Below are positions 1-64,000 of a stretch of 64,000 bases of DNA, in pieces (the stretch's first letter is position 1; every line of letters begins with the position of its first letter). The notes below the pieces were generated by a model that was not told where the DNA came from, did not search any database, and saw only the letters and a list, made by a program, of their open reading frames with translations. Source of the DNA: Callorhinchus milii (taxonomy: Eukaryota); assembly GCF_018977255.1 (NCBI RefSeq), contig NW_024704742.1, positions 130,202,001 to 130,266,000 on the forward strand. The letters are read 5' to 3'. Made by a program: the position numbers and the translations under genes.

Positions 1-89
1 TCAATTTTATGATCACACTTTTATCCTCCCTGTTGCATTGCTGGGACCTGTTAATACAGCAGTTTTTCTACTTCTCTAAAGTAACGTAC

Positions 90-557
90 CCAGTTAGTGT
101 TGTTCTGCGGCTGTGCTTTCTTGAACTGCATCAGACACTCGGCGATACTTTGGGACAGCAGTTCCACTTCTTTCTGCTCTACAGATGGAGTCATCACCCG
201 ATCTGCTACACAAGATACAAATACAAGGAAAGCCACTAACCGCCCACAGCAATACTTTCTTGGTTCATTCAGTTCAGATGCAACTCTAGAAATTATCCGG
301 GCACCATCTTCAACGCTTAAAAGATTCATTCCAGATATATCCTTGAGAATGGATTCTGAGATCTTAGAGATGACTTCCTCTAAACTTCCCATCTCTTTAC
401 AGGAGGATTCAATAACTTGGCTTTTTCCCTGGCTATGATCCATTAAAAGCTTTGTCATATCACTGCATCGAGCCCGGATTTCATCATCAGACAAGTCGAC
501 TGGGATGGAATGAAGCCCTTTCAGAATCTCTATCATTATCTGAGGTCGGGTAACCAT
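90..557 (-). CDS. Divergent Bcl-2-family protein (MCL1/BCL2A1-like), first coding exon, 156 codons; the remaining exon(s) lie off the left edge
   Basis: The BH1-like segment IISRVASELNEPRKYCCGRLVAFLVFVSCVA (NWGR replaced by CCGR) is followed by a helix-6-like LLSQSIAECLMQFKK. The exon ends NNTNW|GTACGT, a phase-0 donor exactly at the conserved Bcl-2-family BH2 intron position (xxGW|). An in-frame TAA lies 2 codons upstream of ATG 557. Confidence 0.8.
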
Positions 558-8583: not shown

Positions 8584-8892
8584 TAATAATAATAACCTTG
8601 CATTTGATATAGCGCTTTCCACGTCATCTAGAAGTTTCAAAGCGCTTCACAGAATAGACTGTAAAGTGAATTGACCATACATTTGTGGGCGAAACGCGAC
8701 AGCCAATTGCCCACAAACAGTCGTGGATTGAAAATGACCAATTTATTATTGTTTTCGGTTTTGGAGGGATTATTATTATTAGGCGTGTGGAGTAAGGAAA
8801 CTTGCCCAAGGTTTCGCCCTCTGCCTGGAATTGATCCCAGGTGTCTCGCTTGCAAAGCGAGTGCTCTAAACCACTGAGCTACAGGACTCCAC
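8584..8892 (-). mobile_element. tRNA-derived SINE, full length
   Basis: Head GGAGTCCTGTAGCTCAGTGGTT (A box) with a B-box-like GGTCAATTCC, and a (TAT)n tail. Many copies occur in the window. Confidence 0.9.
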
Positions 8893-9160
8893 AATGTAAA
8901 TTAAATTGACTGTACATTTTGTGGGCAAAACATGGCAACCAAATGCGCATAGCAGTGTCCCACAAACACTTGTGGATTGAGTGACAAATTTTTTTTATTT
9001 TTTTTGAAGGAATTATTTATATAAGTAAATCTTGGAAGGTGGCAGGACAGGTAGATAGATATCAGCGCCTTGGGACGTCCTCTCGACCTGAAAGGCGCTA
9101 TACAAATGTAATTTTGTTGTTCTTGTATATAAAGCTGTAAAAAAAAGCATATGGATACTA

Positions 9161-10250
<1,090 letters not shown>

Positions 10251-10403: not shown

Positions 10404-10488
10404 ATGACGTTTTAGAAACTGTAGTTTCCTTATCGAAACACGCAAAGGCTTCTATATATAGACACCTCTATCAGAGCTGAACCATTTC
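10404..10488 (+). promoter_or_regulatory. Core promoter of NOXA-like copy A
   Basis: CRE-like TGACGT at 10405-10410, ISRE-like AGTTTCCTTATC at 10423-10434, TATATATA at 10453-10460, and Inr CCATTTC with its A at 10484. The same set is conserved in copy B. Confidence 0.7.
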
Positions 10489-10744
10489 CTGGTCGCTGTG
10501 CAGTGCAGTGCAGTGCAGTGAGTGAGTGAGTGAGTGAGTGAGAGCGGAGTCGCAGCGTCACAGACAGTGAAGCAGCAGATAGACGTGTCTGCGCTTGTCT
10601 CCAGCAGGGAATCAGCACAGTCACTACACCTCAGCCCCATAAAGAGAGGAGTCCCACATCATCCCACACACACAGAGACACACAGAGACACACAGACAGA
10701 CAGAGAGTCACTGAAGGAGACAGTAGAGGACCTTATTGTTGACA

Positions 10745-10835
10745 ATGGTGGGAAGCCCAAGACACAGAATGAATGGTTACTTGAGGTCAACTGGACCCAG
10801 TGCTGAAGCTGAACCCAGAGCGGCTCCACCAGAGG
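10745..10835 (+). CDS. PMAIP1: NOXA/PMAIP1-like BH3-only protein, copy A, coding exon 1 (MVGSPRHRMNGYLRSTGPSAEAEPRAAPPE)
   Basis: Strong Kozak context ACAATGG and a phase-1 donor G|GTAACT that splices in frame to the BH3 exon. Confidence 0.8.
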
Positions 10836-11249
10836 GTAACTATCCTCTCTCACACAGTACACCCAACACCCCGACCCCCACAGTCACACACATTCCCAGC
10901 GATAGCAGCGTCAGGACTGCAGGACATCCGTGAAAATACCTGACACCAGGACCACAGCTCAGTGTCTGTCACTTCCACATCTCCTGCCTCCCAGTGACAG
11001 CCCCGCGTGGTGTGGTGCTGCTGGTGCTGGCGGTGCTGTTGTTGTTGTTGTTGTTGGGGGGAGGGGACAAAGTCGTGTTTCTTTAGGAAAGACAAATGCT
11101 TTTTTTTTAGGAAAAAACAACTGTAGTTTCTGCATTGTTTTGAAGCGCCATTTCTTATCGCTTTTTTTTTTCTCTTTCTAAGATGTTGAGCGCCTCTCCA
11201 TCACTTGTTTCGGAAGAAAACAAACTTGTTTTCTTCATGTATGAAAGCG

Positions 11250-11522
11250 TGTGTATGTGTGTATGCGTACATGTGAGTATGTATATGTGTGTTTCTGTGA
11301 GTATGTATGTATGAATGTGTGTGAGTATCTATGTGTCTGTGTGTGTATGTGTCTGTGTGTATGTGTGAGTCTGTATATGTACGTGTGTGTATATGTATGT
11401 ATGTGCGTGAGTGTGTATATGTATGTATATGTATGTGTGTGTGTGTGAGTATGTATATGTATGTGTGTATATGTATGTGTGTGTGCGAGTATGTGTATGT
11501 ATGTGTGTGTATATATGTATGT
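11250..11522. repeat. TG/TA-rich low-complexity tract in the copy A intron
   Basis: Direct reading. It is absent from the copy B intron. Confidence 0.9.
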
Positions 11523-11963
11523 TTTTGGAAAAAAAGGTCTTCATTTGGAAAAACAAATACTTTTTTGGGGGGAACTATAGTATTCGTTTTAAAGCGTGAT
11601 TTTTTCTGTTTGTTTCTGTCATTTTGAAAGCTTCTCCATCGCTTCCTTCACGTTTGGGGGCAAAGAAGTTGGTTTTCCTGGGGGTGTATTATAGAAATTT
11701 ACAGGACAGAAGGAGGCCATTCAGCCCATTGAGTCTGCACCAGCTCTCAGAGCAAGGTGTTCATTCAATCCCACTGCGCTGCCTTATCCCCATATCCCTT
11801 CAAGCCTCTATCGGTCATTTACCTGTCCAGCTCCTGCTTGAAACCCACAAAGGACTCTACCTCTACCACCTTGCTTGTATTATTGCTACGTTTGTATTCT
11901 TACCACACAGCCCAGCGAGGAAACTCAAGTTGTTGATGTTTTGTGTTGTGCTTTTTGCTCCAG

Positions 11964-12076
11964 ATCCGAACGCTATCAAGGAGTGCGCGATGAGGATGAG
12001 GAAGATCGGAGACCTGTGCAACTTTCTCCAGGTGGTGATGAACACCTTGAGGAGCGCCCTGAGACTGATCACCTGA
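11964..12076 (+). CDS. PMAIP1: NOXA/PMAIP1-like copy A, coding exon 2 (DPNAIKECAMRMRKIGDLCNFLQVVMNTLRSALRLIT*)
   Basis: Acceptor CTTTTTGCTCCAG. ECAxxxRxxGDxxNF matches the NOXA BH3 signature (human, recalled: ECATQLRRFGDKLNFRQKLLNLISKLF). The protein totals 67 aa. Confidence 0.85.
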
Positions 12077-13163: not shown

Positions 13164-13486
13164 GGAGTCCTGTAGCTCAGTGGTTAGAGCACTCGCTTTG
13201 CAAGTGAGAGACCTGAGTTCAATTCCAGGCAGAGGGCGAAACCTTGGGCAAGTTTCCTTACTCCACACGCCTAATAATAATCCCTCCAAAAACAAAACAA
13301 CAATAAAAAATTGGTCATTTTCAATCTACGCCTGTTTGTGGGACATTGCTGTGTGCAATTAACTGCCGTGTTCGTCCACAGATATGCAGTCAATTCACTT
13401 TACAGTATATTCTGTGAAGCGCTTTGGAACGTCTAGAAGACGTGAAAAGCGCTATATCAAATGCAAGGATTATTATAATTATAATA
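13164..13486 (+). mobile_element. tRNA-derived SINE inserted in the copy A 3' UTR
   Basis: Full head and tail. The empty site is visible in copy B (CTTAATAAGAGC, about 23773), with a probable TAATA target duplication. Confidence 0.9.
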
Positions 13487-21928: not shown

Positions 21929-22012
21929 ATGACGTTTTAGAAACTGTAGTTTCCTTATCGAAACACGCAAGGCTTCTATATATAGACATGTCTATTAGAG
22001 CTGAACCATTTC
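21929..22012 (+). promoter_or_regulatory. Core promoter of NOXA-like copy B
   Basis: TGACGT at 21930-21935, ISRE-like AGTTTCCTTATC, TATATATA at 21977-21984, p53-type half-site AGACATGTCT at 21984-21993, and Inr CCATTTC. Confidence 0.7.
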
Positions 22013-22295
22013 CTGGTTGCTGTGCAGTGCTGTGCAGTGAGTGAGTGAGAGCGGAGTCGCAGCGTCACAGACAGTGAAGCAGCAGATAGACGTGTCTGCG
22101 CTTGTCTCCAGCAGGGAATCAGCACAGTCACTACACCTCAGCCCCATAAAGAGAGGAGTCCCACATCATCCCACATATAAACCCCACCAGAGAGACGCAC
22201 ACACACAGAGACACACAGACAGACACACACACAGACAGACACACAGACAGACAGAGAGTCACTGAAGGAGACAGTAGAGGACCTTATTGTTGACA

Positions 22296-22386
22296 ATGGT
22301 GGGAAGCCCAAGACACAGAATGAATGGTTACTTGAGGTCAACTGGACCCAGTGCTGAAGCTGAACCCAGAGCGGCTCCACCAAAGG
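22296..22386 (+). CDS. PMAIP1: NOXA/PMAIP1-like copy B, coding exon 1
   Basis: Identical to copy A exon 1 except GAG>AAG (E30K). Phase-1 donor G|GTAACT. Confidence 0.8.
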
Positions 22387-22871
22387 GTAACTATCCTCTC
22401 TCACACTTACACACTTTGTTTATTCGGAAAAACAAATATTTTGGGAAGGGAAAAAAAGTATTTGTTTTAAAGCCCTAATTCTTTTTTTTCTTTCTGTTAT
22501 TATGAATGACTCTCATCGCTTCCTTTGCGTTCAGGGTGGGGTTGGTGGGGGCAATAGAAGTTGTGGGTTTGCTTGTAATATATATAATGTAATGTAATAA
22601 ATTATAGAAATTTACAGGACAGAAGGAGGCCATTCAGCCCATTGAGTCTGCACCAGCTCTCAGAGCAAGGTGTTCATTCAATCCCACTGCGCTGCCTTAT
22701 CCCCATATCCCATCAAGCCTCTATCATTCATTTACCTGTCCAGCTCCTGCATGAAACCCACAAAGGACTTTACCTCTACCACCTTGCTTGTATTATTGCT
22801 ACGTTTGTATTCTTACCACACAGCCCAGCGAGGAAACTCAAGTTGTTGATGTTTTGTGTTTTTAGCTCCAG

Positions 22872-22975
22872 ATCCGAACGCTATCAAGGAGTGCGCGATG
22901 AGGATGAGGATGATTGGAGACCTGTGCAACTTTCTCCAGGTGATGGTGAATACCTTGAGGAGCGCCCTGAGATGA
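22872..22975 (+). CDS. PMAIP1: NOXA/PMAIP1-like copy B, coding exon 2 (DPNAIKECAMRMRMIGDLCNFLQVMVNTLRSALR*)
   Basis: Acceptor TTTTTAGCTCCAG and an intact BH3. The protein totals 64 aa. This frame is not in the ORF track. Confidence 0.82.
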
Positions 22976-34530: not shown

Positions 34531-37502
34531 GGGTAGGTGGCTTAATAAATAAATAATCCTTGCATTTGATATAGCACTTTTCACGTCTTCTCGATGTCTC
34601 AAAGCGCTTCACAGAATAGACTGTAAACTCATTATTCTGTTTACCAAACAGCTCCTTAACATCATTGCAACTGGTTCCCCATTTGCAAGAATGAAAGCAA
34701 AACTCAATTCTGGTACCAGCAAAAATGTGCAATTTGTTCACTTGGCAGTTTAATCGTGAAAAGTCTAACTAAGCACTATAGCCTAGCACTCGCCAAAATT
34801 GGGTGCTTTCCAAAGATTGAAACAAAGGAAATGTAAATAAATTCTACACTGCTATTTCCAACCGTATCATTTACATAAGGAAACAATAACAAAACTCTCA
34901 ACATGCAAGTCATGTGCAAGGAATAGCCTTTAATTGTGACGCTGGGTTATTTTGCAAGAGTGACAGCAATCAAAATAAGTTATGTTTTTACACTAAACTG
35001 AATGATTGTCACTTTTAATGAAAGCGCCTGTGCCAGTGGGAAGAATGACAAGCCAGTAACATCATAATAATAATAATAATGTTAACATTTGGTATAATGC
35101 CTTTCACACTGGGACTGTTTGTAGATGATCTTGAGGGAGTTTAGGTGAAAGATTCCAGAGTTATGAATAATCTGAACACTATATCATTTTCTTTCTGCTT
35201 CGATTATTCTCCCGGTTTCTTGGACAACAATCTTCCTGACAAAATATGTCATTCAATTCGTTGTTGTGTGTGGGACATTGCTGTGTACAATTTGGCTGCC
35301 ACGTTTGCTTACAAAAATACACAGTGACTACACTTTACACTAAATCCTGTAAAGCGCTTTGAGACATCCTCCCGACATGAAAAACACTATATCAAAGGCC
35401 AGGATTATTATTCATAATACTAAGTACAGTTGTAAAGGGTGAAAATGTATGATGACCATAATAATTTTGTGCCTCTTCCCTCCCTGGTATCACTACTGAC
35501 CTGTTCCTAACTTCCTTTCCAGGATTTCTCAATCTTCTGCTAATTTTCTTGGCAGTACTGATTTATTTTCCTAACCTTTGCCCCCTTCCCATCCATTCAG
35601 TACGTGACAATCTGGCTCAGTTGAGTTACTACTCATGTCAGAGTACCCTTACATCAGAAGGTTGCGGATTCAGTCTCCATGTTAGGACTTTGAACTCACA
35701 GTAAGGCTGACACTCCAGTACAATGCTGGGGGTGTTCTGCATTTCGGAGGTGCCGTCCTTTATATAACACACTAAACCCAGATCAAACCCAACAATCACC
35801 CAGATAAAATTGGTCATTCACTTCATGATTGTTTGCGGGATATTGCTGTGTGCAAATCTGCACACAGCATATACATTTGACTATAAAATAAATTCGACAC
35901 ACTTTACAATAAATCCCATGAAGCACTTAGAAACGTCTTCCTGACATGAAAGGCACTATCTATTATTTATATACCTTACTGCGCTCATTGTTTGTTACTG
36001 ACCATTTCCTTGCCAATTCGTTCTCTGGGTTTAATGCCTTGCCTGGCTTCTGATGATAATAAGCATATAATAATAATCCTTGCATTTGATATAGCGCCTT
36101 ATCACGTCTTCGAGATGACTTAAAGCGCTTCACAGAATATAGTGTAAAGTGTAGTGACTGTGTATTTTCTGGGCGAAACACAGCAATTGCCACATCAGTG
36201 TCCCACAAACAGTCGTGGATTCAGTGACCGATTTTTTTTTAACAGAATCGTTGGGACGTGGAATGCCCTGCCAAATAAGGTGGTAGAAGCAGAGTCTATT
36301 GTGGGGCTCAAGAGGAATGTAGACGGATACATGAAAGACATAGGCTGGAGGGAATATGGAGTATAGGGATTCTGCTGAGAGATGATGCAAACTTGATGGG
36401 CTAAATGCCCTCCTTCTGTGCTGTAAATTTCTATGATTGTTTTGCCTTGTTTCTAAGCCTGTGACTGCATCTCATTGAGGGCTGCCATGATTTAATAACA
36501 TAGCGAGGCAAACCACAATGGTATGAATGACCTAATCCTGTTCCAACGCTTCACAGAGGACACAGGACAGTAACGTACATTCATATTGTTCCTTTCAAGA
36601 AAAAATATAACTCAAAGCGCTTTACAAAATGCAGTGTCATTGATTTAGAACAAAATGAATAAAAATAATAATAAACCTTGTATTCGATAAAGTGCCTGTC
36701 ACGTCAGGAGGATGTCTGAAAGCGCTTCGTAGGAGTTCATAGAATATGCGTCAGCTTGGTTCAGTGGTGTGTTGTATCATTGCAGGTGCCATCCATTGGA
36801 TGATACATTAAACCGTCTCATCCGATGGATGGTTCAGGTGTGTTAATGATCCCGCGGCGCTATTCAAAAGAGAAGGGAGTTTCTCCCTAGGCCCTGGACA
36901 ATAATCCTACAAATAAAATTGGTCTCTCACTCCATGGCTTTTTGTGGGACATTGCTATGTGCAATTGGCTGCCACATTTCGCCCACAAAATACACAGTCA
37001 GTCCACTTTACATTATATCTTGTGAAGTGTTTTGAGACGTCTCAACAACGTGATGAATTGCGACATTGAATCCAAGGATTATTATTAATAATAATGCTGT
37101 TATAAAAGCAAACAGTAACTTGCACTTATATAGCACCCTCCAGCAGGGTAGCATCTCAGAGCGCAGAGCGAATCAAACAGACCTCAGTCCTCTCGCAAAC
37201 ACCCTAAACACAACTCTAATCTGCGGCAACAACTTGCCACAAACATGGGAAATACAATTATTGGAGGGTGTGTTTCTGTGTATCTTCACAATGTTTTCAG
37301 GCCTGAATTCTCTCGCTTGATAATATCATGTTAGGTGTGCGTGTCCATCAACACATTCCAAAAATACAGATATGTGTTTTTCGAAAAGGAAAATTACCAC
37401 ATTATTGCTACATACAGTAACATGGAAAAATACACCCAGGAAGCTGGGCTAATTTAAATAAACAGGTTTGGGAGGACTGCTTGCAATATTAAAATAATAA
37501 AA

Positions 37503-37835
37503 ATAATAATAATAATAATTCTTGCATTTGATATAGTGCCCTATCACGTCATTGAGACGTCTCAAGGCGCTTCACAGAATATATTGTACAGTATGTATTT
37601 GTGGGCGCAATGCAACAGTCAATTGCGTATAGCAGTGACCCACAAACAGTCGTGGATTGAGTGACCACATTTTTTTCTTGAGGGATTATTACCCCTGAAA
37701 AGCAATCCGACAATCGACTAACAACTGGGTAAACAGAGGAATGTGGAGTGAGGAAACTTGCCTAAGGTTTCGTCCTTGCCAGGAATCAAACCTAGGTCCC
37801 CTCGTTGCAAGGCGAGCACGCTAACCACTGGGACT
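37503..37835 (-). mobile_element. tRNA-derived SINE, older subfamily
   Basis: Divergent copy of the same head, body and tail. Confidence 0.8.
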
Positions 37836-37948
37836 TCAGATATTGTGGAAGGTTTCGATCAGATGGGCCAAAGACCCTTCTTCATTGCAATTCCTTTTGT
37901 GGAATTGTCAATTAGCAGGTGAAGCGTATTTCAAGGCGTTCCCAGGCA

Positions 37949-38226
37949 TGACTCATATTCTGCCACACACCAAGGTGTTTGTTGAACAAAAAATAACAAG
38001 TAGATTCACATGTTGTTTTACTTCGGCAGATTCAGTCTTGTGATGATCACTTGTTCCAGGAAGTAAAACTGATGATGTTTGGTAACTCTAAAATTCTTGG
38101 ATTTCCCCTGACACATGGAGCTGCACAGGCTCTTGCTCAATAATTGGGTGGAAATTTTGGTGCTTTACTATCAAGATCTGCAGTTATAAATACAGGGCTG
38201 ATCCCTTGTTCAACAGATATCATTTC
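37949..38226 (+). promoter_or_regulatory. Promoter of NOXA-like copy C
   Basis: AP-1 TGACTCA at 37949-37955, GAS TTCCAGGAA at 38054-38062, kB-like GGATTTCCCC at 38099-38108, TATAAATA at 38185-38192, and Inr-like TCATTTC at 38220-38226. Confidence 0.6.
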
Positions 38227-38358
38227 CCAGACAAACTACAGTGAACGTGTTAGTGTTAACTCCTGCTGCTGATCGCTTACAAACAGTGAAAGCAGATACA
38301 CATTGCTTACATTGAAAGGCGTTAAAGTGATCTGCGTCACATCCAGAGGACAGCAGCA

Positions 38359-38416
38359 ATGAAATCCTTTGCCGGTAAATCGCTGAAAAGGCAGGAAAGT
38401 CGCCCGTCTTCTCCAG
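38359..38416 (+). CDS. PMAIP1: NOXA/PMAIP1-like copy C, coding exon 1 (MKSFAGKSLKRQESRPSSP)
   Basis: First ATG after the TATA box, 19 codons plus 1 nt, strong donor CAG|GTGAGG. GKSLKR resembles the human NOXA GKKARK (recalled). Confidence 0.8.
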
Positions 38417-39868
38417 GTGAGGATTTGCAACTATTGTGTGCGTCTGTGTGTTTGTTGAGGGGGATAGAATACCTCACTGTTACTATACAGAAATTAGCAT
38501 TGGCAAGATCTGACCTTGGAAAACATGTATTTTTTTTGCAAATGAAAAATCACACCAGAAAGAAATAAGCTTTGTTTTTGTTCCTTTTTTTCAAATTTCC
38601 AATAATTGCAGTTTTTTGTTCATGTTTCTTTCACAAAACAATACTCTGCCACTGGAGATAAGAGAGTTTGTGAAGTGTTTCAAGTGAAAACAGGTAGACT
38701 CCATTCTGCTGTCTGCAGTGTGCTGAGTACTAGACTGGAGGACACACACACTCCATTGTATACAACATTAGAGTATTTGAACTGTTACAACAGCAAAAAC
38801 AATGACAACTTGTATTTATATAGCGCCCTCCACGCAGGGCAGGGTCTCGGGAGCACTGGTTTAAAAAGAAGACAGAAAAAACAGGCAAAAATGAATCATC
38901 AAAACCAGTCTTGTTGATCTCTGTTGCTGAGAGCAAGTGGCCATGATTTACTGCTCTGATCTGTAAATGATTAATTTACAAATTAGTATTGAGTGAAACT
39001 AAATATGGTAAAGATGAGGCTGAGGTGTCAATCAGGCTGACTGGGCGAAACCCTCCATTAATAGCTTCCTCTCATCTTCAGTCAGAGAATTCAGACTCAA
39101 CTCTGACCGACTAAAGAAAAAGTCTCCTCTCTATTGGTTTAGAGGCAGAAATTTCATCTACATTCACTCTTATTTTCTTAGCCTTTCAGAGTAGCCAGAA
39201 ATTGAAATTGTTAAATTTAGCCGGAACTCTTGAAGCCAATTTTCTCCAACTCTTAAAAGAACTTTTTCTTAAAAGAAAACGGCTTTAAAATTAACGCCTT
39301 TGTTGAAGAATTTGTTGAGTTCTGGAACTGTGAAATGCTGTGAAATAGAAATTTAGACTCTATCCTATACCAGTGATGTGCCCTGGTTCCACAATCACTG
39401 TGAACAAAACTGAGATTCTTCAGGCTAGTTATTTTCAAGACAATAGTCCGAGAAATTCCTAAATTTACTCCATATCATAACATTTCATGGCATCCAGAGC
39501 TTTTTTGCATTTGATATCAGCGCCTTGGGACATCCTCCCGACGTGAAAGGCGCTCTATAAATGCAATCTTGTTGTTGTTGTTGTTGTTGTTATCACATCG
39601 TTGAAACATCTCAAAGCACGTCACAGGATTTACTGTAAAGTGGATTAACTGTATATTTTATGGGTAAAATTGGTCACTCACTCAAATTATAGGGAACTGG
39701 GAAATGCTTGACGCTGACAATGAGTAATAAAAGCAAAGAAAGGTCAAGTGCTGAAATCCCTTGCCGCAGAGTCAGCACAAATGTCCCTAAAAATATATTT
39801 TTGACTGAGGTTAGACTGAGGTTTTGAGTTACAGGCAAAATGTCATGACGACAATATGTTTATTCCAG

Positions 39869-40005
39869 ATGCAAAAGCCATAAGAGAATGTGCCCTGGAG
39901 CTGAGAAAGATGGGTGACCTGATGCATCTGAAAGTCTTAATACTCAGCAATCTTCACCTTGAGCAAAGTCAGAAGAAAAAACAGAAGGATAAAGTGAAGA
40001 GGTGA
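39869..40005 (+). CDS. PMAIP1: NOXA/PMAIP1-like copy C, coding exon 2 (DAKAIRECALELRKMGDLMHLKVLILSNLHLEQSQKKKQKDKVKR*)
   Basis: Acceptor TTTATTCCAG, phase 1. Canonical BH3 ECAxxLRxxGD that aligns with DPNAIKECAMRMRKIGDL of copy A. The protein totals 64 aa. The exon is below the ORF-track threshold. Confidence 0.85.
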
Positions 40006-40599
40006 AGTGAAGGTTAAATGTCTTTTAAGGATGCTTCCCTTGGACTGGATTCTTCACTCGTTCAAAGCAGAGGTGACACCATTGGGAAAAGGAAAGCATC
40101 CCACGCCAATAAAGGCTTTGGAATCCGAACAACAGAAATCCTTCTCTCGTCCTCTCACAATATAACATTTGGACAGCGAACTATTTCCAAGACGGTTGTA
40201 AAATGCAAACGATGGTTTCGTTAGTGGGTTATCGGGTCTCATTTGATCAAAGAGCTTGTGCTGAGAATCTGTTTTTCTCAATCCCTTCAACTTTCATCCA
40301 GGTGATTTGGGGGATCATTCTCTGACTGTGAATCTTCTCTAAACATGGGGCGGGGGAGAGAATATAATATTCCTTGCTGCACTGTGCCTTTACAGACTTT
40401 ATCAACGTGAGTTCCTACAGATAGTGGGAAATCCCATTATGAACTGAGGTCAACTATAGCAATGTGACCAACATGATAAGATCTATGAAGTTTCTAATAT
40501 TCAGCAAATTAATCCTACCCCTCCAGCCAACCAAAAACAGCTTATGTATCCAGCAATTTTAAAGCTAGTATGTTGAGAGTTGAATGTGTAAGTGCATGA

Positions 40600-40725
40600 A
40601 ATTATTTATGGATTGTGTTACTGCTTTCGAAATATGTAAACAATATTTGTTATGTAGTTAGATTGGACAAGCTGCATTGTCCTATAGGATGCATTAATTT
40701 ATAACTAGCAATTTATTATTTAACA
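40600..40725 (+). promoter_or_regulatory. AU-rich elements in the copy C 3' UTR
   Basis: TTATTTAT (about 40602), AATTTAT (about 40696) and ATTTATTATTTAA (40711). Confidence 0.4.
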
Positions 40726-42829
40726 CTTGTTACTAAAGTAAGTGCACCTTGAATTATTTTTGCATTGTTCTTCTAGACTTTTTAAACACAATAACGTATC
40801 TGATAAAACTGTGAATGCCTAAAGTCAGAAATAAAAGACAGAAAATGCTGGAAATCTATTGTAAGTTCAAACAGCATCTGAAAGACAACAGCAAGTTAAC
40901 ATTTCAGATGAAAAATTCTTCTGAAAGGTTAGCCTGTGTTTATTTATAGTAATAATTCTTGAATTTGATATGGAGCCTTATCCCATCAAAGCGTCTCAAA
41001 ACCCTTCATTTTCAGTAAGGTGGAGTGACTATATATTCAAAACACAAAATCTTATGAAGCGCTTTCAGACGTCTTGACAAATTGATAAAGCACTACATCA
41101 AATGCAAGGATTATTATTTTTTTTGTAGGTGAACATGGCAGCCAATTTGCATACAGCAATGTCCTGCAAACAGCCATGACTTGAATGACCAATTTTTTTA
41201 TCTCTGGGGTTTGTTACCCAGGACACTGGGAAAAACTCCCTTCTCTTTTCAAACAGTGTCATGACATATATAACGTCCGCCTGAGCTGGCAGATGGGAGC
41301 TTAGTTTACATCTCATCTGAGGGACAGTACCTCTGACATTTCCAGCATTTCTGTTGATAGTCAATGATTTTAACCTGAAGCTCTCCCTGTATCAGTTGTC
41401 ACTGGACACATCACAATAAAACAATAATCCATATAACCTGCAATTAATGGTGCTATTCATGGAGTCTCTGAGTTGTATTACAACATGAAAATGTGTGGAA
41501 AGAAACCTTCCACCTTGTCACATCAAAAGTACTCAAAGCATTTTGACAGTACAGTAATTAATATCCAGGTGCTTCCCTTGGACAAGCAGTTAATTTAAGG
41601 ATTGATGGCCAGATCACTTGGAGAACTATCTTTATTGTCTTTGTTTGATTAGCAACATGGGATCTCTAATGTGCACTCAAAAAGGAGGCAGTCAGACGTG
41701 ATATCAGCTTAAAACTTTTTTTGGTTAGCCGAGTTTCTGACACATGCAGAAACCCATCACTGTGCTTAAGAGAAACCAAACCAAGCTGAGAATTCCATGT
41801 ACCCCATATACACATGGAAATTCCAGAGATAGACTTTTGGAAGGACGTATCCTCCTTATTCAATTCTGGAAAGTTGAGATTGAGGTACTGCTGGAGTCTG
41901 ACCAGCTAAACCCACATAGCTTGCCATTGATATCGCTGTCTGGCAAGCTTTCCCACTGCTTAACCAGCTCGGACCACTCTACTCATTAGGGCACTGGCTT
42001 GCAGTGTTAACAGGAGCTGAGTCGGAGGATTCCCTGCCCCCAGTGACTGGTCTGCCATTCCACGTCCTGCCGACGAGCCAGACTGGCTGTGCTTGATGGT
42101 GAACCTGAAGGAAGGCCCAATCAATAATACAGCATTTTCCCCTGGTACTACAATGGAGTGTCAGTGTACAATATGAACTCAAGTCCCTTCGTCAAATTTG
42201 ATCCCATGTCCCTGTAAGGTCCAGGATGAGTGTGATATCAACTGAACCAAGCTTACACTTTAAAAAAAAAGGTTGGTAGCAAGATACTCTTTCTTAGCTA
42301 GGGACTGATGCTGCTTTCAAATAAATATATTAACGAACAGCTTCCTTTTTTTCCAAATAGTGCCATGGAATGTTTAGCATCCACCTGGTATCTTGGTTTA
42401 CCGTCTTGTTTGACCCTCAACTATCCTTTCTACCCCACATCTGCGCCATGACCCGCTCTGCCTTCCCCCACCTCCGCAACATCGCCCGTCTCTGCCACTG
42501 TCTCACACCGCAGGCTGCCAAAACCCTCATAATGCTTTTATTACATCGAGGATTAACTATGCAAACTCACTGCTTGTCGGCCTCCCCAACTCCTCCCTCT
42601 ACAGGCTGCAGATCATCCAGAACTCTGAAGCCCGTGACCTCTCCCGCACCAACCTCCGTGATCCTATCACCCTCATCCCAATTCCCAATGAAGTAGACTC
42701 CAGATTTAGATTGATTCAGAGCAGAGTTCCTGTGGGTCAGGATAATAATACCTCAAAGAATGGAAAGGAGTTGCCTAGATGTATGACTGTTAGAAATGGC
42801 TGCATTTTAATCCCCAATGTTAGTCAGAT

Positions 42830-48474: not shown

Positions 48475-48797
48475 ATAATAATAATAATCCTTGCATTTGA
48501 TATAGCGCTTTTCACATCGGGAGGACGTCCCAAAGCGCTTCACAGAATATACTGTAAAGTGAATCGACTGTATATTTGTGGGCGAACGCGGCAGCCAATT
48601 GCGCACAGCAATGTCCCACAAACAGTCGTAGATTGAAAATAACCAATTTATTATTGTTTGGGGTTTTTTGGAGGGATTATTATTAGGCGTGTGGAGTAAG
48701 GAAACTTGCCCAAGGTTTCACCCTGACCTGCCTGGAATTGAACTCAGGTCTCTCACTTGCAAAGCGAGTGCTCTAACCACTGAGCTACAGGACTCCA
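48475..48797 (-). mobile_element. tRNA-derived SINE, full length
   Basis: Same family. Further copies lie at about 46520-46840 (+), 49170-49441 (-), 60600-60885 (-) and 62917-63150 (+). Confidence 0.9.
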
Positions 48798-49080: not shown

Positions 49081-50165
49081 CTGAGACTTTACTGTGAGAG
49101 GTACTGAGTGTGTGGTTCTCGTCAGGTAAACACTGCAGACAGACAGACAGAAACAGAATATATTGGAAAGTCTATTTTGTGAGCGAAACATGGCAGCCAA
49201 TTGCACACAGCAGTGTCCCGCAAACAGTTGTGCATTGAGTGACCAAATTATTTTGGGGGGAGGGATTATTACCCCCAGAAAGCGACCTGCCAATCGACTT
49301 ACAACGGTTTCCTACTTGCTGCCAGGTAAATAGAGGCATGTAGAGTAAGGAAACTTGCTTAAGGTTTCGCCCACCCAGGAATCAAACCCGGGTCTTCTCA
49401 CTTACAAGACGAGCACGCTGACCACTACGCTATAGGATCCCACGCAGATCAGACTGGGATTGCACCTTTTCTCAGCCATTGACATCAGGTCAGTAGATGT
49501 CAGAATGAAGCAGAATGGGAGAAAAATGTTGAGTAAACTAAATCAACAGTGAAAGCACTGGCAAGAAAGTCAATTTAAAAGTTGAGATTGATGCAATTCC
49601 CCTTCAGAGAGAGGTGGATAACAGCGAGGAGATACAGAGAGATGGATAACAGTGAGGAGACAGACAACTACTAAAGCAACAGGTGGTTTTAAAGGGAGGA
49701 CATCTCAAAGCAGAACAGCAGAATGGTTGAGCTGGTGGGGGAACCCGGTTTTTAGTCGATTGGCGAATCGCTTTTCCGGGGGTAATAAGCCCTTCAAAAA
49801 GAAATAAATAAAATAATAATAATAATCATATGTGTTTACTGGGCAGAGGGAACAGATGGGACACGAGGGCACATAAGTTCTCAAACGATATGGTGGAGCG
49901 AGGTTGTGGAGGCGTTTAAACAGTGAGGGCGAGAAATCACAAATAGTTCAGGCCATTTAGCAAACCTTTTACAACTGGCTATAAAATAATATTGATAACT
50001 TTATCTGTGGAACACCATGTCCATTTTTTTCCATAGAGCTTGTTTGGGAGGAAAATCTCTATTTTTAACCTCTTATATACAATTCTATAGTGACTCACCC
50101 AGGAGACTTTGACACAAGCTTATCCAGGAAACTTTAAAAACAGAGGGTGTGAGAACAGTAAGGAA

Positions 50166-57100: not shown

Positions 57101-57641
57101 TCTGGTGGAGAAGAACATGTTTGGTTCCTAACAGATTCCTTCAATTTAGTTTGATTTGGGCAGTCGCACTGTTATGGCCAAAACACGAGTGTTTCCTTCA
57201 CGTGAAGAGATGCAGGCATGGCATGATTTGACCTCACATAGTCTTGCCTGGATTGTGGAGAAGCAGGCTGAACAAGACAGATAGCCTCCATTAAGGTAAC
57301 CCTACAACGCTGCAGTTTAGTTGGTACATAACATGTAATGGACTCTGGAATGGAAGTTTGGAAGTGTTAGGCTTGCGAATCAGTAACTGGACAGTGCCTT
57401 CAGGAATGGCTTTGATAATGTTGCAAGCATCCGCTGGGTTATCTACTCATGTGGCATTTCAACCCGGAAAAGAAAAAAGGACATTTCAAGCTATTTCCGA
57501 CAGAACATGAAAGAATCTGCAGCTCAGTCTTTGCAGCATTACTTCACGTTCGTGTCTCTCTTTGGCACCCTGGCAAAGTGACATTAATCAGCCTCATGCT
57601 AATGTTTCAGTGGAACTGCAGTCAGAGCCGTCAAACCATCG

Positions 57642-57805
57642 CTACACAGTGTTAGGCTTGCGAATCAATAACTGGACAGTGCCTTCAGGAATGGCTTTGA
57701 TAATGTTCCAAGCATCGTAGTGCATGAGTCCATGCAAGAACTTCCCATTGATTGCAAGCACTTCATCCCCAATGTCAATCCTTCCAGACTGCTCAGAAGC
57801 GCCAC
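57642..57805 (-). CDS. PDZD2: PDZD2-like, last coding exon (C-terminal PDZ: GASEQSGRIDIGDEVLAINGKFLHGLMHYDAWNIIKAIPEGTVQLLIRKPNTV*)
   Basis: Acceptor CCTGCAG, phase 1, stop TAG. Matches the recalled PDZD2 end GLMHFDAWNIMKSVPEGPVQLLIRK. Confidence 0.88.
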
Positions 57806-57914
57806 CTGCAGGTCAATGGAGGCAAAACACTATTAGAACTTGCATTGCTAGAACCCTATTTCCAATTACATATCAATCTTAGCATTTGATACAGTGCCTT
57901 ACTACATGGTTGAA

Positions 57915-58590
57915 ACAACAACAAATTGCATTTGTATAGTGTCTTTCACGTCAGGAGGACGTCCCAAGGCGCTGAGCAGTCAGCACCCAAGCTGGTGGTT
58001 GGGATCAGGAGAGGTGGAGGGCGGGGAGGGGTAGGAGGGTGACCGAAGTTACGGTCGAAGAGAAGGGTATTGAGACAGGTCTTGAAGGAGGCAAGTGGGG
58101 GGGGGGGGGCAAGGCGGAAGTACTGTGTGATGGAGTTCCCACTCCATCCCATAGTGTTAAATGCCTCTGAGCACCAAGTCTTAGGGTACAGCAGCCAGAG
58201 ATTGCTGTGAGACTCGATCTAAGGTTCCCTAATCAGAGTAGTTTGGGGAATGTGGTGGAGAAGCTGACTGGTGGGGGCAGAGATGCTGAAGGCCCACCCA
58301 TTAATGGTGGGGTGGGCAAAGTGGGGGTGGTGAAGCAGGCCGGAGCCCATTGAGCGGAGGAAATGGATAGGTTGGTAGGAGGTTAGGAAGTCAAGAGATC
58401 GGGAGGAGCAAGACCATGGAGGACTTTGAATGTAAGGACCAAGATCTTGAACTGTATCCTCTGTGTGATGAGAAGCCAGTGGAGTCGGGCGAGGATGGGG
58501 GTGAGGGAAAGGACACGGGCTGCAGAGTTCTGGATGGTCTGCAGCCTGTGAAGGGAGGAGTTGAAGAAGCTGACAAGCAGGGAGCTTACA
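57915..58590 (-). mobile_element. Decayed L2 3' fragment (similar pieces at about 52560-53060, 60160-60550, 61460-61930 and 63830-64000)
   Basis: LASFKTCLNTLLFDR and the shared 3' stem CTTTCACGTC..GGACGTCCCAAGGCGCTG. Confidence 0.8.
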
Positions 58591-61117
58591 TAGACGTCTC
58601 AAAGCGCTTCACAGAATTTACTGGAAAGTGTAGTGACTGTGCGTTCTGTATGTAATTTTGGGGGGTCAGCCGAAACTCATCACCATGCTTAAGTGTATTA
58701 GAGAAATGGGGGCAGCCTTACTTAGGGAACAGCCCTCTCTGCACACTCTCACCAGCGAAAGACACACTAACTTTTGTTGCGGTGGACACCATGTGTGATT
58801 TTTTTGGATGCCTTTTTTCTATTCGATGTCTTATCGATCAGTACAGAAACATGCAATTTTCAAACAAATGGTAAAGGTTGATCCTGGATATGACCCCGGC
58901 CCCCAAACTTCAGCACAAACAAGTAGGGCACGAAGCTTTCAAACATTTCAGAGCCACCGTCATTGGCAGCCACCTAGTGTTCCACTCTCTTCATGGCATA
59001 CTGGTTTAGGCAAGTGGTGGATCATTTTTCTTTAGTCAGGGGCCGAACAACAACAGGAACAAGTTGGCAGAAAGGGTGGTAGAGGTCAGGACACTGGACT
59101 CATTTAAAAGCAGCTTGATGCAGTGTTAGGAAGGATGAGATTGGATGGGTTGAAGGGCCTTCTTCATCCAAATCAATCTTATGATCTCCATCTTCATCAC
59201 AATTTTCACTCAATATTTCGAACAGTGACTGAGAATTGATTGTGGAGCTCCATCTACTGGATTGGCCGATGTTTACAACTCAGTCCTACTGGTGAGAGGC
59301 AGGCTCATGATAGAGACAGTCACTGGTTACTGTAGTAGAAGAGGACCCTTCACTTACTAATGGCCTCATAACAGGACAAAGGCTTTTTAGCAACGAGATG
59401 GTGATGACAAAAGACTAGCATAGAGTGACAGACTTCTTTTGTGCCTCACACACACAAAATAAACAAGAGCGCTGAGCAACTTAAAAGGCCAATACAATAT
59501 CACTTGAAATTTTAACAAATTGTAGCTTCCACGAAATGAACAGCTGGAGCTGGAAAAAAAAGCACTGCAGACCACTCTGTGCTTGTTGCAAATAAAGCCA
59601 CACATTTACTCTGTGTGGTTCTGCACATTCCTACTTTTTTTTTTACATGATACATGTGGAAACACATCATCTGGCTAAAGAGCATCCAAACCAGACACGA
59701 GCTCCGTGTGTGTCACCTACACACGGGAATTTCCTTGCGTCTGGAATGCATTGCACGCTCTCTCTCCCTGAGAGCACATTCCTAAAACATTATCACGCTG
59801 AAACTGAAAAGGTAACAAATTTGATGCATTGAGAAGGCAGTACCAAGAACTTTCCAATTATACAATTTTCCACCAAACTAAGTGGGAGAGGGGGTGAAGA
59901 AGGCAAAAGTCAACTTGGATTTCTGCATCTGATCACTATTCACCTACAAAATACAGTCACGTCACATGAAGCGCTTTGAGATGTCTTCCTGATGTGAAAG
60001 GAACTGTATTAAATTAAAAAATTTTATTACTCTCACTCTGGATACTGTGAGACATTGTGATAATAATAATAATCCTTGCACAATAATCACATCGCTAAGA
60101 CATCTCAAAGCACTTCACAGAATATACTGTAAGGTGAATTGATTGTATATTTTGTGGACAAAACAACAACAAAATTGCATTTGTATAGCGCCTTTCACAT
60201 CAGGAGGACATCCCACGGCGCTGGACAGAGTTTCGGATCCGAGCTGGTTGTTGGGGTCGGGGAGGATGGAGGGGAAGGGGGAAGCAGGGAGATCGAAAGC
60301 ACGGTCGAAGAGGACGGTCTTGAGATGGGTCTTGAAGGTGGAGAGGGAGGGAGTGAGGTGGAGGGACTGCAGGATGGAGTTCCAGAGGGTGGGGGAAGAG
60401 TGGCGATAGGCTCACCCGCCAATAGTGGGGTGAGCAAGGTGGGGGACTTGAAGCAGGCCGGAGCCCGCTGAGCGGAAGGAATGACCAGGTTGGTAGGGGG
60501 TTAGGAGGTTGCAGAGGTAGGGGGCAGCAAGACCATGGAGGGCTTTGAAGCTCAATCATGAAGCAGTCGCAGATTGAGTGACCAAATTATTATTATTTTA
60601 TAATAATAATCCTTGCATTTGATATAGTACCTCATCACGTGGGCGAAAGGTAAGAGCCAATTACCCACAGCAGTGTTCCACAAACAGTCATGGATTGAGT
60701 GACCAAATTATTATTTTTTAAAAATTTTTTTTTGAAGGGATTATTACCCCCAGAAAAGTGATCCACCAATCAATTAACAACCAGGTTCCTACTTACTGCC
60801 AGGTAAACAGAGGCGTGTGGAGTAAGGACGCTTGTCCAATGCTTTGCCCTGTCCGGGAATCGAACCAGTAAGCTACAGGACTACACAGGCTTACATGCTG
60901 TTTATTCATGGCCTTTCTTGCTGAAAATCAAAGTGTCTGCCTGCAACACCCAGACCTGAATGGTACTGGACACTGTTACTGTAATACTCAACCAGTGACC
61001 CCCATTTAATCACTGATAGACAGCCCCTTTCAATTAGCATGTTTTTTGCCTCGATGTTGAGCTCACTCATAAGGGGATGCTTCCTTTATATGCTGCATTC
61101 TTAGTTAAATTGTTTAC

Positions 61118-61252
61118 CTCGAAATATCCGTTTAATATACAGAGGTCTGTCTCCATGGATTGATGCCTTTCCTCCATCTAGGCTGAATCCCAGGCCAGCA
61201 GAGGTCTTTAACAGCTCTACAGTGATAGCTCCACCTAGGTCCACATTTATTC
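61118..61252 (-). CDS. PDZD2: PDZD2-like, penultimate exon ([45 protein letters not shown])
   Basis: GLGF PDZ loop, acceptor TTACAG, donor G|GTAAAC, 135 nt, phase 1 to 1. Confidence 0.9.
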
Positions 61253-62577
61253 CTGTAACAGTGAGGAGAAAGACGTGAACGATCTCAGCCAAGGCTGATT
61301 GAGAAGATAAAGTTACCTCTGGGCTCTCCGGGTTAGGGAGGGAAAAACCAGCCAAAGTTCCCTTTACAGGAGCCATCACGTGTATTGTGCATGTGGGGCT
61401 GCCGGGTGAGGAGAAGTCAGGCTGAGCTGTGAAGCCATCTATTGTCAAATGGCCTCCCGACAAACAACAAACAACAACAAATTGCATTTATATAGTGCCT
61501 TTCACATCGGGAGGATATCCCAAGGTTCTGGACACTTGAGGGTTTGCATCCAAGCTGAGGGCTGGATTCTGGAAGGGTGGGGTCAAAGGGGGTGGGAAGA
61601 TGACCGAAGGCATGGTCAAAGAAGGTCTTGAGACAGACCTCGAAGGAGAAGAGGTTAGGGGTGAGGCAAAGGGACTCTAGGATGGTGTTCCAGAGAGTAG
61701 GGGCAAAAACGATGAAGGCCCGACTGCTGATGGTGCGACAGGCAGGGCGGGGATGTGAAGCAGGTCGGTGGCTGCCGAGCAGAAGGAGCAGGTGGGTTGA
61801 TGGTGGGGCAAGACTGTGGAGGGTTTTAAAAGCGAGAACGAGGATCCTGAATTCAATCCTCTGGGGGATGGGAAGCCAGTGGAGCCGGGCAGGGATGGGG
61901 TTGATAGGCTCGTGCAGCTTAGTACGAGAAAACTGACTCACTGCCAAAGCTCATACATGAACAAAGCACAAGTTAATGGAGAGCAACCAGTGCCCGTGGA
62001 ACTGCACCCCCAGGTTGGGTCAAAGTCTCAAAGCACTTCACAAGATCTTCTGTAAAGTGACTGGGTATTTGTAAGCAAATGCGGCAGGCAATCTGCACAC
62101 AGCAGTGTCCCACAAACAGCTATGGAGTGAGTGACCAATTTTATCTGGGAGATTGTTGGCCAGGACACCGAGAAAAACTCCTATCGCTTTTTCGAATAGC
62201 GCAATGGGATTTTTTAACATCCACCTCAACAGGCAGGCAAGGTTACAGGTGGCTTGAAACCACAACCTTCTGACTCCGAGGTGAGAGGTCTACCAACTGA
62301 TCCAGGTTGCCACCTACTTGCCTATGACACCCATTAATAATTTCCTGGCTGACGTTAAGTTAAACCAGCAAAGGTCAGGATTTGATCCTGTGATGTTCCA
62401 GCTATGCAGGTCTCTGTTTCACTCTACACGTTGACTTACCAACTGAAGCCACGATCCATAACAATCTAATTTCTTTAAAGAAGACATTATAAATACTACT
62501 GAATGTTGCTGCTAAGCTGCTGTGATGGAAGGAAATGCAGCATGATTTATAGGGGACCTGATGATTGACTTCCTTAC

Positions 62578-62848
62578 CCACTGTTGTTTCTATGGCAGTG
62601 TCTCTTGTCATCGAAAGACGTTTTCCTTTGGGAAGAGATACATCCTGCTGAGAGGAGACCTCTTCCACTTCTTTCCCTCGCTTGATTACAATGACGGATC
62701 GTTTGGGTAAGCGAGCTTGATGTAGAGTGTTGAGTGCGTCGCCATGGGTAGAGCCAACAACTGAGATCCCATTGATGGACAAGACGCTGTCTCCTCGTTG
62801 GATGGTCCCCTCTTGAGCGGCCACACCTCTCGCAAAGATTCTGTGGAT
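62578..62848 (-). CDS. PDZD2: PDZD2-like, third-last exon (second half of the penultimate PDZ plus linker)
   Basis: IHRIFARGVAAQEGTIQRGDSVLSING...LHQARLPKRSVIVIKRG, acceptor TATGCAG, donor G|GTAAGG. The linker resembles PDZD2 more than IL16 (recalled). Confidence 0.9.
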
Positions 62849-64000
62849 CTGCATAAAGATTTGTGGTTAAATCTACAAGGGGAACATCTATTATTAATTT
62901 GAGGCCTGGACTAATCGTTTCCTTACTCCACACACCTAATAATAATCCCTCCAAAAGCAAAAACAATAATAAATTGGTCATTTTCAATCTACGACTGTTT
63001 GTGGGACATTGCTGTGCGCAATTGGCTGCCGCGTTCGCCCACAAATATACAGTCAATTCATTTTACAGTGTGTTCTGTGAAGCGCTTTGAGACGTCCTCC
63101 CGACGTGAAAAGTGCTATATCAAATTCAAGGATTATTATTATTATTATTATCGTTAATCCTTGCATTTATACAGCGCCTTTTACGTAGGAAGGATGTCCC
63201 AAAGCGCTTAACAAAAATTACTGACTAAAAATCCGTAGGCGAACACAGCAATCAATTCAAGCATAGCAACATACCACAAACAGCCATAAAGTAAGTGACC
63301 TATTTTATTTGGGGGATTGTTGGCCAGGACACAGGGAGAAACTCCCTTCTCTTTTCGAATAGTGCCATGGAATCTTAATGTCCACCAACCAGACAGGACC
63401 TCGATTTATTGTCTCATTCGAAGGACGTCACTTCCAACAATGCAACACCTACCCAGCATTGCGTGTCAGAAAGTTGTGGGACTTGAACTCACATAGCTTA
63501 AGTGGAGCGTCAGTTTAGACTATGCAAATTCAAGTCCCCACAACTTTCTGACTAAGTCTGTCGATTGCTTAAAATGTATTTCTGGGCCAGGGAAGAGAGC
63601 GGATGTCGCCCAGATATTTTGTTGATCAAGCCCAGCAAGCATATCAGAGAAAAACAAAATGATCTGAAAGTCGGTCATTAAAAATTATATTTAATAAAGT
63701 TTGATTCAAATTAGGGCATAGGGCAAGCTGAAAGACAACAATTTCATTTCCCTGGATAGGAGCACTCCACATACTGGTGCACCACCTACAATGTTAATGG
63801 TGAACATCGTTATTCTAATAATAATAAAAAACAAGATTACATTTGCATAGTCGGGAGGATGTCCCAAGGCGCTGGGCAGTGTACAGCATTTCAGACCCAA
63901 CATGGGATCAGGGGGGAGAAGGGAGGGGAGGGGAAGGGGGGTGACCGATGGCCTGGTCGAAGAGGAGGCTTTTGAGGCGGGACTTGAAGGAGACTAAGGA

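What the first reader, a model, noticed from the sequence alone, without database searches (positions are those of the whole stretch)
38185..40005. Third, highly divergent NOXA-like gene whose BH3 exon is missed by the ORF track
Seen: TATA box, a 58-nt coding exon 1, a phase-1 intron and an exon 2 with canonical LRKMGD. Exon 1 shows no evident similarity to copies A and B, so the duplication is old. The C-terminus is a polybasic KKKQKDKVKR rather than the amphipathic FLQVVMNTLRSALRLIT of copy A. Inference: different localisation (NLS or anionic membrane) or lysine-dependent turnover, meaning functional diversification within the cluster. It is small enough to be missed by annotation.
Basis: partly seen in the sequence, partly recalled or inferred. 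Interest (0 to 1): 0.72.

Follow-up and report, generated by a model that had tools for sequence, protein, structure and literature searches.

The report
Third NOXA gene with frameshifted tail
This is a real, spliced third copy of the cell-death trigger gene NOXA, probably in a cartilaginous fish; its death motif is intact, but its normal mitochondria-targeting tail seems to have been replaced, through a frameshift, by a lysine-rich stretch that need not be an adaptation.

Summary
The gene is real. TATA box, 58-nt coding exon, phase-1 GT-AG intron and BH3 exon are all present. The predicted 38416/39869 joint occurs in 3 of 3 RNA-like runs laid (2 studies) and not in the 1 DNA-like run. The BH3 exon is homologous to tandem copies A and B and to NOXA/PMAIP1.

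The claim that the basic tail is an evolved targeting or turnover signal is unsupported. A net +7-nt shift after the BH3 helix moves the conserved tail motif out of frame (shuffle p about 0.006 and 0.04, post hoc). The A-rich tract that C translates is 3' UTR in A and B and is K/R-rich in every frame.

Best reading: an MCL1/A1-binding sensitiser with a half-lost mitochondrial-targeting/degron tail; binding and localisation are inferred, not shown. The cluster lies head-to-head with a divergent, possibly MCL1-class Bcl-2-family ORF and tail-to-tail with a PDZD2/IL16-type gene. The scan had not noted it before. New variant of a known kind.

The parts
38185..38190 (+). TATA box of copy C (function as start site not shown)
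   Evidence: X5 contig begins 38224, X2 contig begins 38116
38279..38301 (+). 5' UTR block shared with copies A and B (21 of 25 nt); in A and B it runs into a p53-element-like 20-mer that C lacks
38359..38416 (+). coding exon 1 of C: 19 codons plus 1 nt, basic and Ser/Pro-rich
   Evidence: covered by spliced contigs
38417..39868 (+). phase-1 GT-AG intron, 1452 nt, with repeat remnants
39869..39948 (+). BH3 helix (ECA..LRKMGD) and the hydrophobic first half of the post-BH3 segment
   Evidence: Pfam PMAIP1 E 0.0055, profile positions 23-40; homology to A and B; NOXA peptides lead the PDB hits for the A/B/C profile
39949..40005 (+). probably frameshift-derived tail ending in the K/Q/R-rich stretch and TGA; the old tail motif lies in the +1 frame from about 39956
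   Evidence: no indel in 4 runs
40006..41000 (+). 3' UTR with AATAAA at 40108 and 40830 and five ATTTA pentamers (40604-40942); the true end is not shown
   Evidence: X3 contig runs to the end of the stretch laid, X2 and X5 pieces end at 40687 and 40709
10453..12076 (+). copy A: TATA 10453, coding exon 1 10745-10835, exon 2 11964-12076, 67 aa, amphipathic tail
   Evidence: Pfam PMAIP1 27.4 bits against a cut-off of 27
21977..22975 (+). copy B: coding exon 1 22296-22386, exon 2 22872-22975, 64 aa; recent duplicate of A
87..557 (-). divergent Bcl-2-family exon, head-to-head with the cluster (ATG 557; probable donor near 90; next exon outside the window); weakly MCL1-like
   Evidence: Pfam Bcl-2 E 0.0008, below cut-off; PDB hits are MCL1 at E 0.47-1.7; Atlas 0.93 to Bcl-2-fold clusters
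57642..62866 (-). last two PDZ exons of a PDZD2/IL16-type gene, tail-to-tail with C

Best explanation
Copy C is an old, transcribed member of a three-gene NOXA (PMAIP1) tandem cluster. It makes a 64-aa, probably disordered BH3-only protein. SHOWN: gene structure, splicing, an intact BH3 whose residues were kept while synonymous sites changed, and a tail that no longer resembles the family tail. INFERRED from sequence (about 70%): a net +7-nt (or +4) change after the BH3 helix shifted the second half of the ancestral amphipathic tail out of frame, so that C now reads an A-rich, formerly untranslated tract. INFERRED from the family (not tested): C inserts its BH3 helix into MCL1/A1-class grooves and frees BAK/BAX or activators. 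With half of the mitochondrial-targeting/degron tail gone, it should be weaker at dragging its partner to mitochondria and degrading it. It would then behave like a natural version of the tail-mutant human Noxa-5A, which binds MCL-1, stays mostly cytosolic and leaves MCL-1 levels high. The lysines are a by-product rather than a selected signal.
For: Splice joint in 3 of 3 RNA-like runs from 2 studies and 0 of 1 DNA-like run. BH3 homology. Of 17 codons vs A, 3 are identical, 7 synonymous and 7 non-synonymous. The Pfam PMAIP1 match ends at profile position 40 of 54 in C, against 46 in B, 48 in A and 54 in P0001. Hydrophobic moment after GD is 0.08-0.13 in C and 0.42-0.60 in A, B and P0001. Among net indels of -10 to +10, +7 scores best (40), then +4 (33), against 4 with no indel. 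The shared 9-mer has shuffle p 0.006 (2000 shuffles); the protein-level match at the same offset has p 0.039 (20000 shuffles). Frame +1 at offset 37 scores 12.0, the next best 3.7. The A and B 3' UTRs are 51-53% A and give 6-10 K+R per 20-23 codons in every frame. Noxa-5A behaviour: PMC3944277, passages read. Tail degron: PMC7464284, passages citing Pang 2014.
Against: The frameshift statistics are post hoc and rest on a 9-mer and a 6-mer. The +1 frame is also basic at its end, so some basic character could predate the shift. C keeps a hydrophobic stretch right after the BH3 (mean hydrophobicity 0.41-0.45, equal to A) that, with basic residues, might still bind the mitochondrial outer membrane. 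The exon-2 frame of C scores 16.9 bits, below the Pfam cut-off of 27. No protein-level or orthologue evidence was found. The runs are RNA by guess, not by record.
Confidence: 0.5

Rival explanations
1. C works as an ordinary NOXA: the hydrophobic residues left after the BH3 plus the basic end are enough for mitochondrial targeting and MCL1 turnover, and the tail change is functionally minor.
For: Hydrophobicity of the first 14 post-GD residues equals that of A. All BH3 hydrophobic positions and the Cys of the ECA motif are kept, and C has Leu at the central BH3 position where A and B have Met.
Against: Amphipathicity is lost and the family profile stops before the tail. Alanine substitution of the tail hydrophobics made human Noxa mostly cytosolic (PMC3944277 passages).
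Confidence: 0.25
2. One reading: the basic tail is a selected new signal (nuclear localisation, anionic-membrane anchor or lysine degron) that gives C a distinct job.
For: Net +5 over the last 14 residues, 12 Lys in total, one minimal K-[KR]-x-[KR] match. Lysines carry ubiquitin in human Noxa (PMC3944277 passages). A frameshift origin does not exclude later selection.
Against: Basic tails arise in every frame of the homologous A-rich UTR. No class 1, class 2 or bipartite NLS pattern matches. A 7-kDa protein needs no NLS to enter the nucleus (general knowledge). No conservation data exist.
Confidence: 0.15
3. C is a transcribed but decaying duplicate: the frameshift and the loss of the p53-like element are early steps of pseudogenisation.
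For: Probable frameshift. No p53-element-like site in 36800-39869 at up to 3 mismatches or up to 4, while A and B have one with 2 mismatches. No orthologue found.
Against: Open frame, canonical splice sites, spliced contigs in two studies, no coding difference in 4 runs, and a BH3 kept despite many synonymous changes, though that signal may predate the shift.
Confidence: 0.1

Closest known systems
Human and mouse NOXA / PMAIP1 (Pfam PF15150; PDB 3MQP, 2JM6, 2NLA)
   Same: ECA-x-x-L-R-x-h-G-D BH3 core. Small size. One intron in the human gene (PMC7308270 passages). A 58-nt phase-1 coding first exon in human is recalled, not checked.
   Different: C lacks the amphipathic second half of the C-terminal targeting/degron segment and ends in a basic tail. 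There are three tandem copies. The neighbours are a Bcl-2-family ORF and a PDZD2/IL16-type gene; neither CCBE1 nor MC4R (recalled human flanks) was seen in this window. The third BH3 hydrophobic position is Met or Ile rather than Phe.
Copies A and B of the same cluster
   Same: Same strand, two exons, phase-1 intron, Asp codon across the joint, shared 5' UTR block and BH3 (12 of 29 residues identical to A).
   Different: No coding exon-1 similarity. The tail is read in another frame. The p53-element-like 20-mer is present only in A and B.
P0001 (unnamed Logan protein, 156 aa)
   Same: NOXA-family protein (Pfam PMAIP1 36.8 bits, profile 4-54); 13 of 29 residues identical to C and 17 of 29 to A.
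   Different: It keeps a canonical amphipathic tail, so it is not an evident orthologue of C. Its organism is not given.
Engineered human Noxa-5A (MTD mutant), PMC3944277
   Same: BH3 intact, tail hydrophobics lost: a functional model for C.
   Different: Artificial alanine mutant. C keeps the first hydrophobic half and gains lysines.

Membership tests
NOXA/PMAIP1 | BH3 motif with NOXA-type ECA prefix, conserved Leu and Gly-Asp | tested here: met
   the four best PDB hits of the A/B/C profile are NOXA peptides (E 0.005-0.11)
NOXA/PMAIP1 | Pfam PF15150 gathering score (27 bits) | tested here: inconclusive
   Only the exon-2 frame (16.9 bits, E 0.0055, sole family) and exon 1 alone (no hit) were scanned, not the whole spliced protein. 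Paralogue A passes (27.4) and C is homologous to A (0 of 2000 shuffles).
NOXA/PMAIP1 | Two-exon gene, phase-1 intron just before the BH3 exon | tested here: met
   (same in A, B and C); the human phase is recalled
NOXA/PMAIP1 (canonical form) | Amphipathic, hydrophobic C-terminal mitochondrial-targeting/degron segment | tested here: not met
   Profile match stops at position 40 of 54; hydrophobic moment 0.08-0.13 vs 0.42-0.60; only the first half remains hydrophobic. Hence filed as a variant, not a canonical member.
NOXA/PMAIP1 | Selective binding to MCL1 and A1/BFL1 | not testable with these tools
   needs a binding assay; property taken from PMC3944277 and PMC8282340 passages
NOXA/PMAIP1 | Stress- or p53-inducible transcription | tested here: inconclusive
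   Consensus scan only (consensus recalled): a 2-mismatch site in A and B, none in C; 6 sites in the whole window. No perfect heat-shock element anywhere in the window.
NOXA/PMAIP1 | Orthologous position (human CCBE1-PMAIP1-MC4R, recalled) | tested here: inconclusive
   The window shows a Bcl-2-family ORF and a PDZD2/IL16-type gene as neighbours. No genome is held to look further. MC4R has other neighbours outside mammals (PMC3151243 passages).
Classical NLS-bearing proteins | Monopartite or bipartite importin-alpha NLS | tested here: inconclusive
   1 of 4 recalled patterns matches (the loosest)
MCL1/A1 class (neighbouring ORF 87-557) | Bcl-2 fold with BH1 NWGR-type and BH2 motifs | tested here: inconclusive
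   Pfam 20.4 bits vs cut-off 31.4; 39 of 40 PDB hits are MCL1 but at E 0.47-1.7; BH1 reads CCGR; Atlas 0.93

The most novel reading that the evidence does not exclude
Cartilaginous fishes keep an ancestral arrangement in which NOXA genes sit head-to-head with an MCL1/A1-class gene that mammals lack at this place. Within that cluster, copy C is a naturally tail-truncated NOXA that binds and stabilises its pro-survival partner, or holds it away from mitochondria, instead of sending it for degradation: a built-in tuner of the A and B killers.
Probability: 0.2. Interest if true: 0.68.

Novelty: new variant of a known kind. Interest (0 to 1): 0.44.

Why it matters
A 2022 survey lists Bim, Bmf and Bid for sharks and rays and names Noxa-like genes only for bony fish (PMC8998228, passages). 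If the organism is a chimaera, as earlier unchecked notes say, an expressed three-gene NOXA cluster dates the NOXA-MCL1 axis to the first jawed vertebrates. Copies A and C form a natural pair that separates MCL1 binding from mitochondrial targeting and degradation, so far studied with engineered mutants. The adjacent divergent Bcl-2-family gene offers a testable case of a death trigger linked to a possible target. None of this overturns a principle; it is a well-supported annotation with a testable twist.

Tried and rejected
No whole genome is held, so wider synteny and further copies could not be searched.

No run is on record as RNA ('no RNA holder listed'); the 8 holders marked 'RNA?' are guesses.

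An alternative donor at 40001/40002 that would skip the stop was considered. No such joint or loose end was listed and the X2 and X3 contigs run through it (the loose-end table was cut). An assembly error as the source of the frameshift was rejected: there is no indel in that region in 4 runs.

Word-index protein searches found nothing for C exon 2, for the A/B/C alignment, or (37 candidates, none at E 0.01 or better) for the Bcl-2-like ORF; only near lengths were searched. The full HMMER search gave 2 hits: P0001, and P0002, a repeat artefact that was dropped. The metagenome scan gave 1 locus from 113 pattern matches, L001, 62% GC with no Gly-Asp-hydrophobic continuation, rejected as chance. 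PDB phmmer with C alone found nothing. The Atlas ranked PMAIP1-containing clusters first, at 0.82 and 0.80, which is lead level only.

The single-sequence model of the Bcl-2-like ORF was poor (pLDDT 45) and its fold search uninformative (best Z 6.2, no Bcl-2 entry in the 50 shown). The complex prediction of that ORF with C exon 2 returned no answer (0.23 and 0.21 against a mark of 0.34); it is evidence neither way.

The 5' UTR fold is not clearly unusual (z -1.8). Pfam scans of 88 frames (86 ORFs of 90 aa or more chosen from 121, plus the two first exons) and 136 shorter non-repeat frames beyond 40800 found no other gene; short exons between 600 and 38000 were not scanned.

Literature: no paper on chondrichthyan NOXA or on this gene order turned up (open-access library only). 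Supplements of PMC8282340 and PMC8998228 held no match for the species name or motifs; the phylogenetic zip of the former may not be among the files searched. PMC4013518 is marked retracted and was not used. Pang 2014 is not held.

Full report
1. Observation. Of 14 runs listed, 4 were laid. X2 (study P1), X3 and X5 (study P2) each have one contig that joins 38416 to 39869 at GT..AG and no cover over the unique parts of the intron. X9 (study P3) covers the intron and lacks the joint. The three are RNA by guess only, but exact intron removal that is absent from X9 is what spliced RNA gives. No coding difference or indel appears in any run where covered. The contigs cannot show the start site, and one reaches 69 nt upstream of the TATA box.

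2. Identity. Exon 2 of C aligns with exon 2 of copy A (11964-12076) and copy B (22872-22975); 0 of 2000 shuffles reach either score. All three genes have the same two-exon, phase-1 layout. Pfam PMAIP1 is the only family hit: A 27.4 bits (passes the cut-off of 27), B 24.2, C 16.9. A profile of the three ranks four NOXA peptides first among 9 PDB hits. A full HMMER search of 1.84 billion representatives gave 2 hits, one a clear NOXA-family protein (P0001; Pfam 36.8 bits) and one a repeat artefact. No fourth copy lies in the window. A and B are recent duplicates: 1 of 91 and 5 of 100 coding bases differ, with about 84% identity over the flanks. C is far older: in the first 17 BH3-exon codons 3 are identical to A, 7 synonymous and 7 replaced. 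Its coding exon 1 shows no protein similarity to A, B or P0001, but a 5' UTR block at a matching distance from the TATA box suggests that the first exons are homologous. Word-index searches found none of these proteins among 24-77-residue entries, so they look unannotated; longer entries were not searched.

3. The tail. The family profile matches C only to position 40 of 54, against 46-54 for B, A and P0001, and the helix after Gly-Asp is hydrophobic but not amphipathic (moment 0.08-0.13 vs 0.42-0.60). A DNA alignment with A shows why. A 9-nt word is shared but read in different frames, 7 nt later in C. Read at that offset, C gives TLSKV, in register with TLRSA in A and TVSKM in P0001. Among net indels of -10 to +10, +7 and +4 (the same frame class) score best. 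Shuffle tests give p 0.006 (DNA) and 0.039 (protein); both were chosen after seeing the alignment, so I put the frameshift at about 70%. Downstream, all three genes have a tract that is about 50% A. It is untranslated in A and B and yields 30-48% Lys+Arg in all six translations. A basic tail is therefore what reading into this tract gives by default. Only the loosest of four recalled NLS patterns matches. A p53-element-like 20-mer with 2 mismatches lies in exon 1 of A and B and not in or upstream of C; with 6 such sites in the window this is a lead only.

4. Mechanism. From passages of PMC3944277: human Noxa binds MCL-1 and A1 through its BH3, reaches mitochondria through C-terminal hydrophobic residues, and is ubiquitinated on lysines. 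A mutant with those hydrophobic residues replaced is mostly cytosolic, shows no ubiquitin ladder, still binds MCL-1, leaves MCL-1 levels higher and sensitises less. PMC7464284 (passages) reports a tail degron, citing a paper I could not read. C keeps the BH3 and the first hydrophobic half of the tail and has lost the amphipathic second half. The most likely reading is an MCL1/A1-binding sensitiser with weakened mitochondrial recruitment and degradation (0.5). Binding, localisation and translation are inferred, not shown.

5. Surroundings. On the minus strand at 87-557, 9.9 kb from the TATA box of A and pointing away from it, lies an open 157-codon frame with weak but consistent Bcl-2-family signals. 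Pfam gives E 0.0008 (below cut-off); 39 of 40 PDB hits are MCL1 chains at E 0.47-1.7; the Atlas gives 0.93 to Bcl-2-fold clusters, cellular and viral. It has a plausible donor just after the BH2-like Trp and a degenerate BH1. Its expression is untested. On the other side, 17.6 kb past the stop of C, end the last two PDZ exons of a gene whose best PDB hits are IL16 domains (E 6e-17 and 1.6e-12). From recall, its C-terminal motifs fit the paralogue PDZD2 better; I could not test this. Earlier unchecked notes call the genome elephant shark and place WDR36, LIN54/SEC31A and GAK on the same long piece. PMC3151243 (passages) gives CDH6 and RNASEN as neighbours of MC4R from fishes to birds; from recall these flank PDZD2 in human. 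An old rearrangement between these regions is therefore plausible, and the cluster could be the true PMAIP1 orthologue in an ancestral position or a paralogous locus. PMC8282340 (passages) groups MCL-1, BFL1 and NRH in one clade and shows that human MCL-1 binds NOXA, which makes the neighbour a candidate partner, no more.

6. Known and new. PMC8998228 (passages and one supplement) names Bim, Bmf and Bid for Chondrichthyes and Noxa-like genes for bony fish. PMC9876281, PMC7022251, PMC7308270 and PMC4962313 (passages) add background only. Eight searches of the open-access library found no description of chondrichthyan NOXA genes or of this gene order; subscription papers were not searched. The scan's own notes hold nothing on it.

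7. Verdict. A real, spliced, apparently unannotated NOXA-family paralogue whose canonical tail feature was tested and not met: a new variant of a known kind. Interest 0.44.

Noticed in passing
window 87-557 (-): Divergent Bcl-2-family exon, weakly MCL1-like, with a degenerate BH1 (CCGR), head-to-head with the NOXA cluster; no homologue found in the protein collection. Possibly an unnamed MCL1/A1-class paralogue; deserves its own follow-up.
   Followed up: partly
window 57642-57812 and 62660-62866 (-): Terminal PDZ exons of a PDZD2- or IL16-type gene; which paralogue decides the synteny argument.
   Followed up: partly
window about 57365-57432 (-): About 68 nt from the end of the PDZ gene's coding sequence are repeated some 270 nt downstream in its 3' UTR (seen by eye).
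   Followed up: no
window 10581-10600 and 22088-22107: p53-element-like 20-mer (2 mismatches, no spacer) in the 5' UTR of copies A and B, directly after the block shared with C.
   Followed up: partly
window 22872-22975: Copy B ends three residues earlier than A and has Met for Lys in the BH3 core. Its first exon is almost identical to A's while the introns differ (485 vs 1128 nt): recent duplication or gene conversion.
   Followed up: partly
window 13834: The single N of the window lies between copies A and B; their divergence argues against uncollapsed alleles, but the join was not checked with reads.
   Followed up: no
window 10745 and 10769: Copy A (and B likewise) has two in-frame ATGs in exon 1; which is used is unknown.
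   Followed up: no
window about 9100-10250: Very long GT-type microsatellite just upstream of copy A's promoter, between it and the Bcl-2-like gene.
   Followed up: no
window 8821-8884, 13170-13232, 16797-16868, 48723-48794, 49375-49432: Five tRNA-like Rfam hits, at least four inside a dispersed repeat family (probably tRNA-derived SINE heads); many LINE reverse-transcriptase fragments.
   Followed up: no
P0001: Unnamed NOXA-family protein from a public run, with a long C-terminal extension beyond the family tail (156 aa); organism not given.
   Followed up: partly
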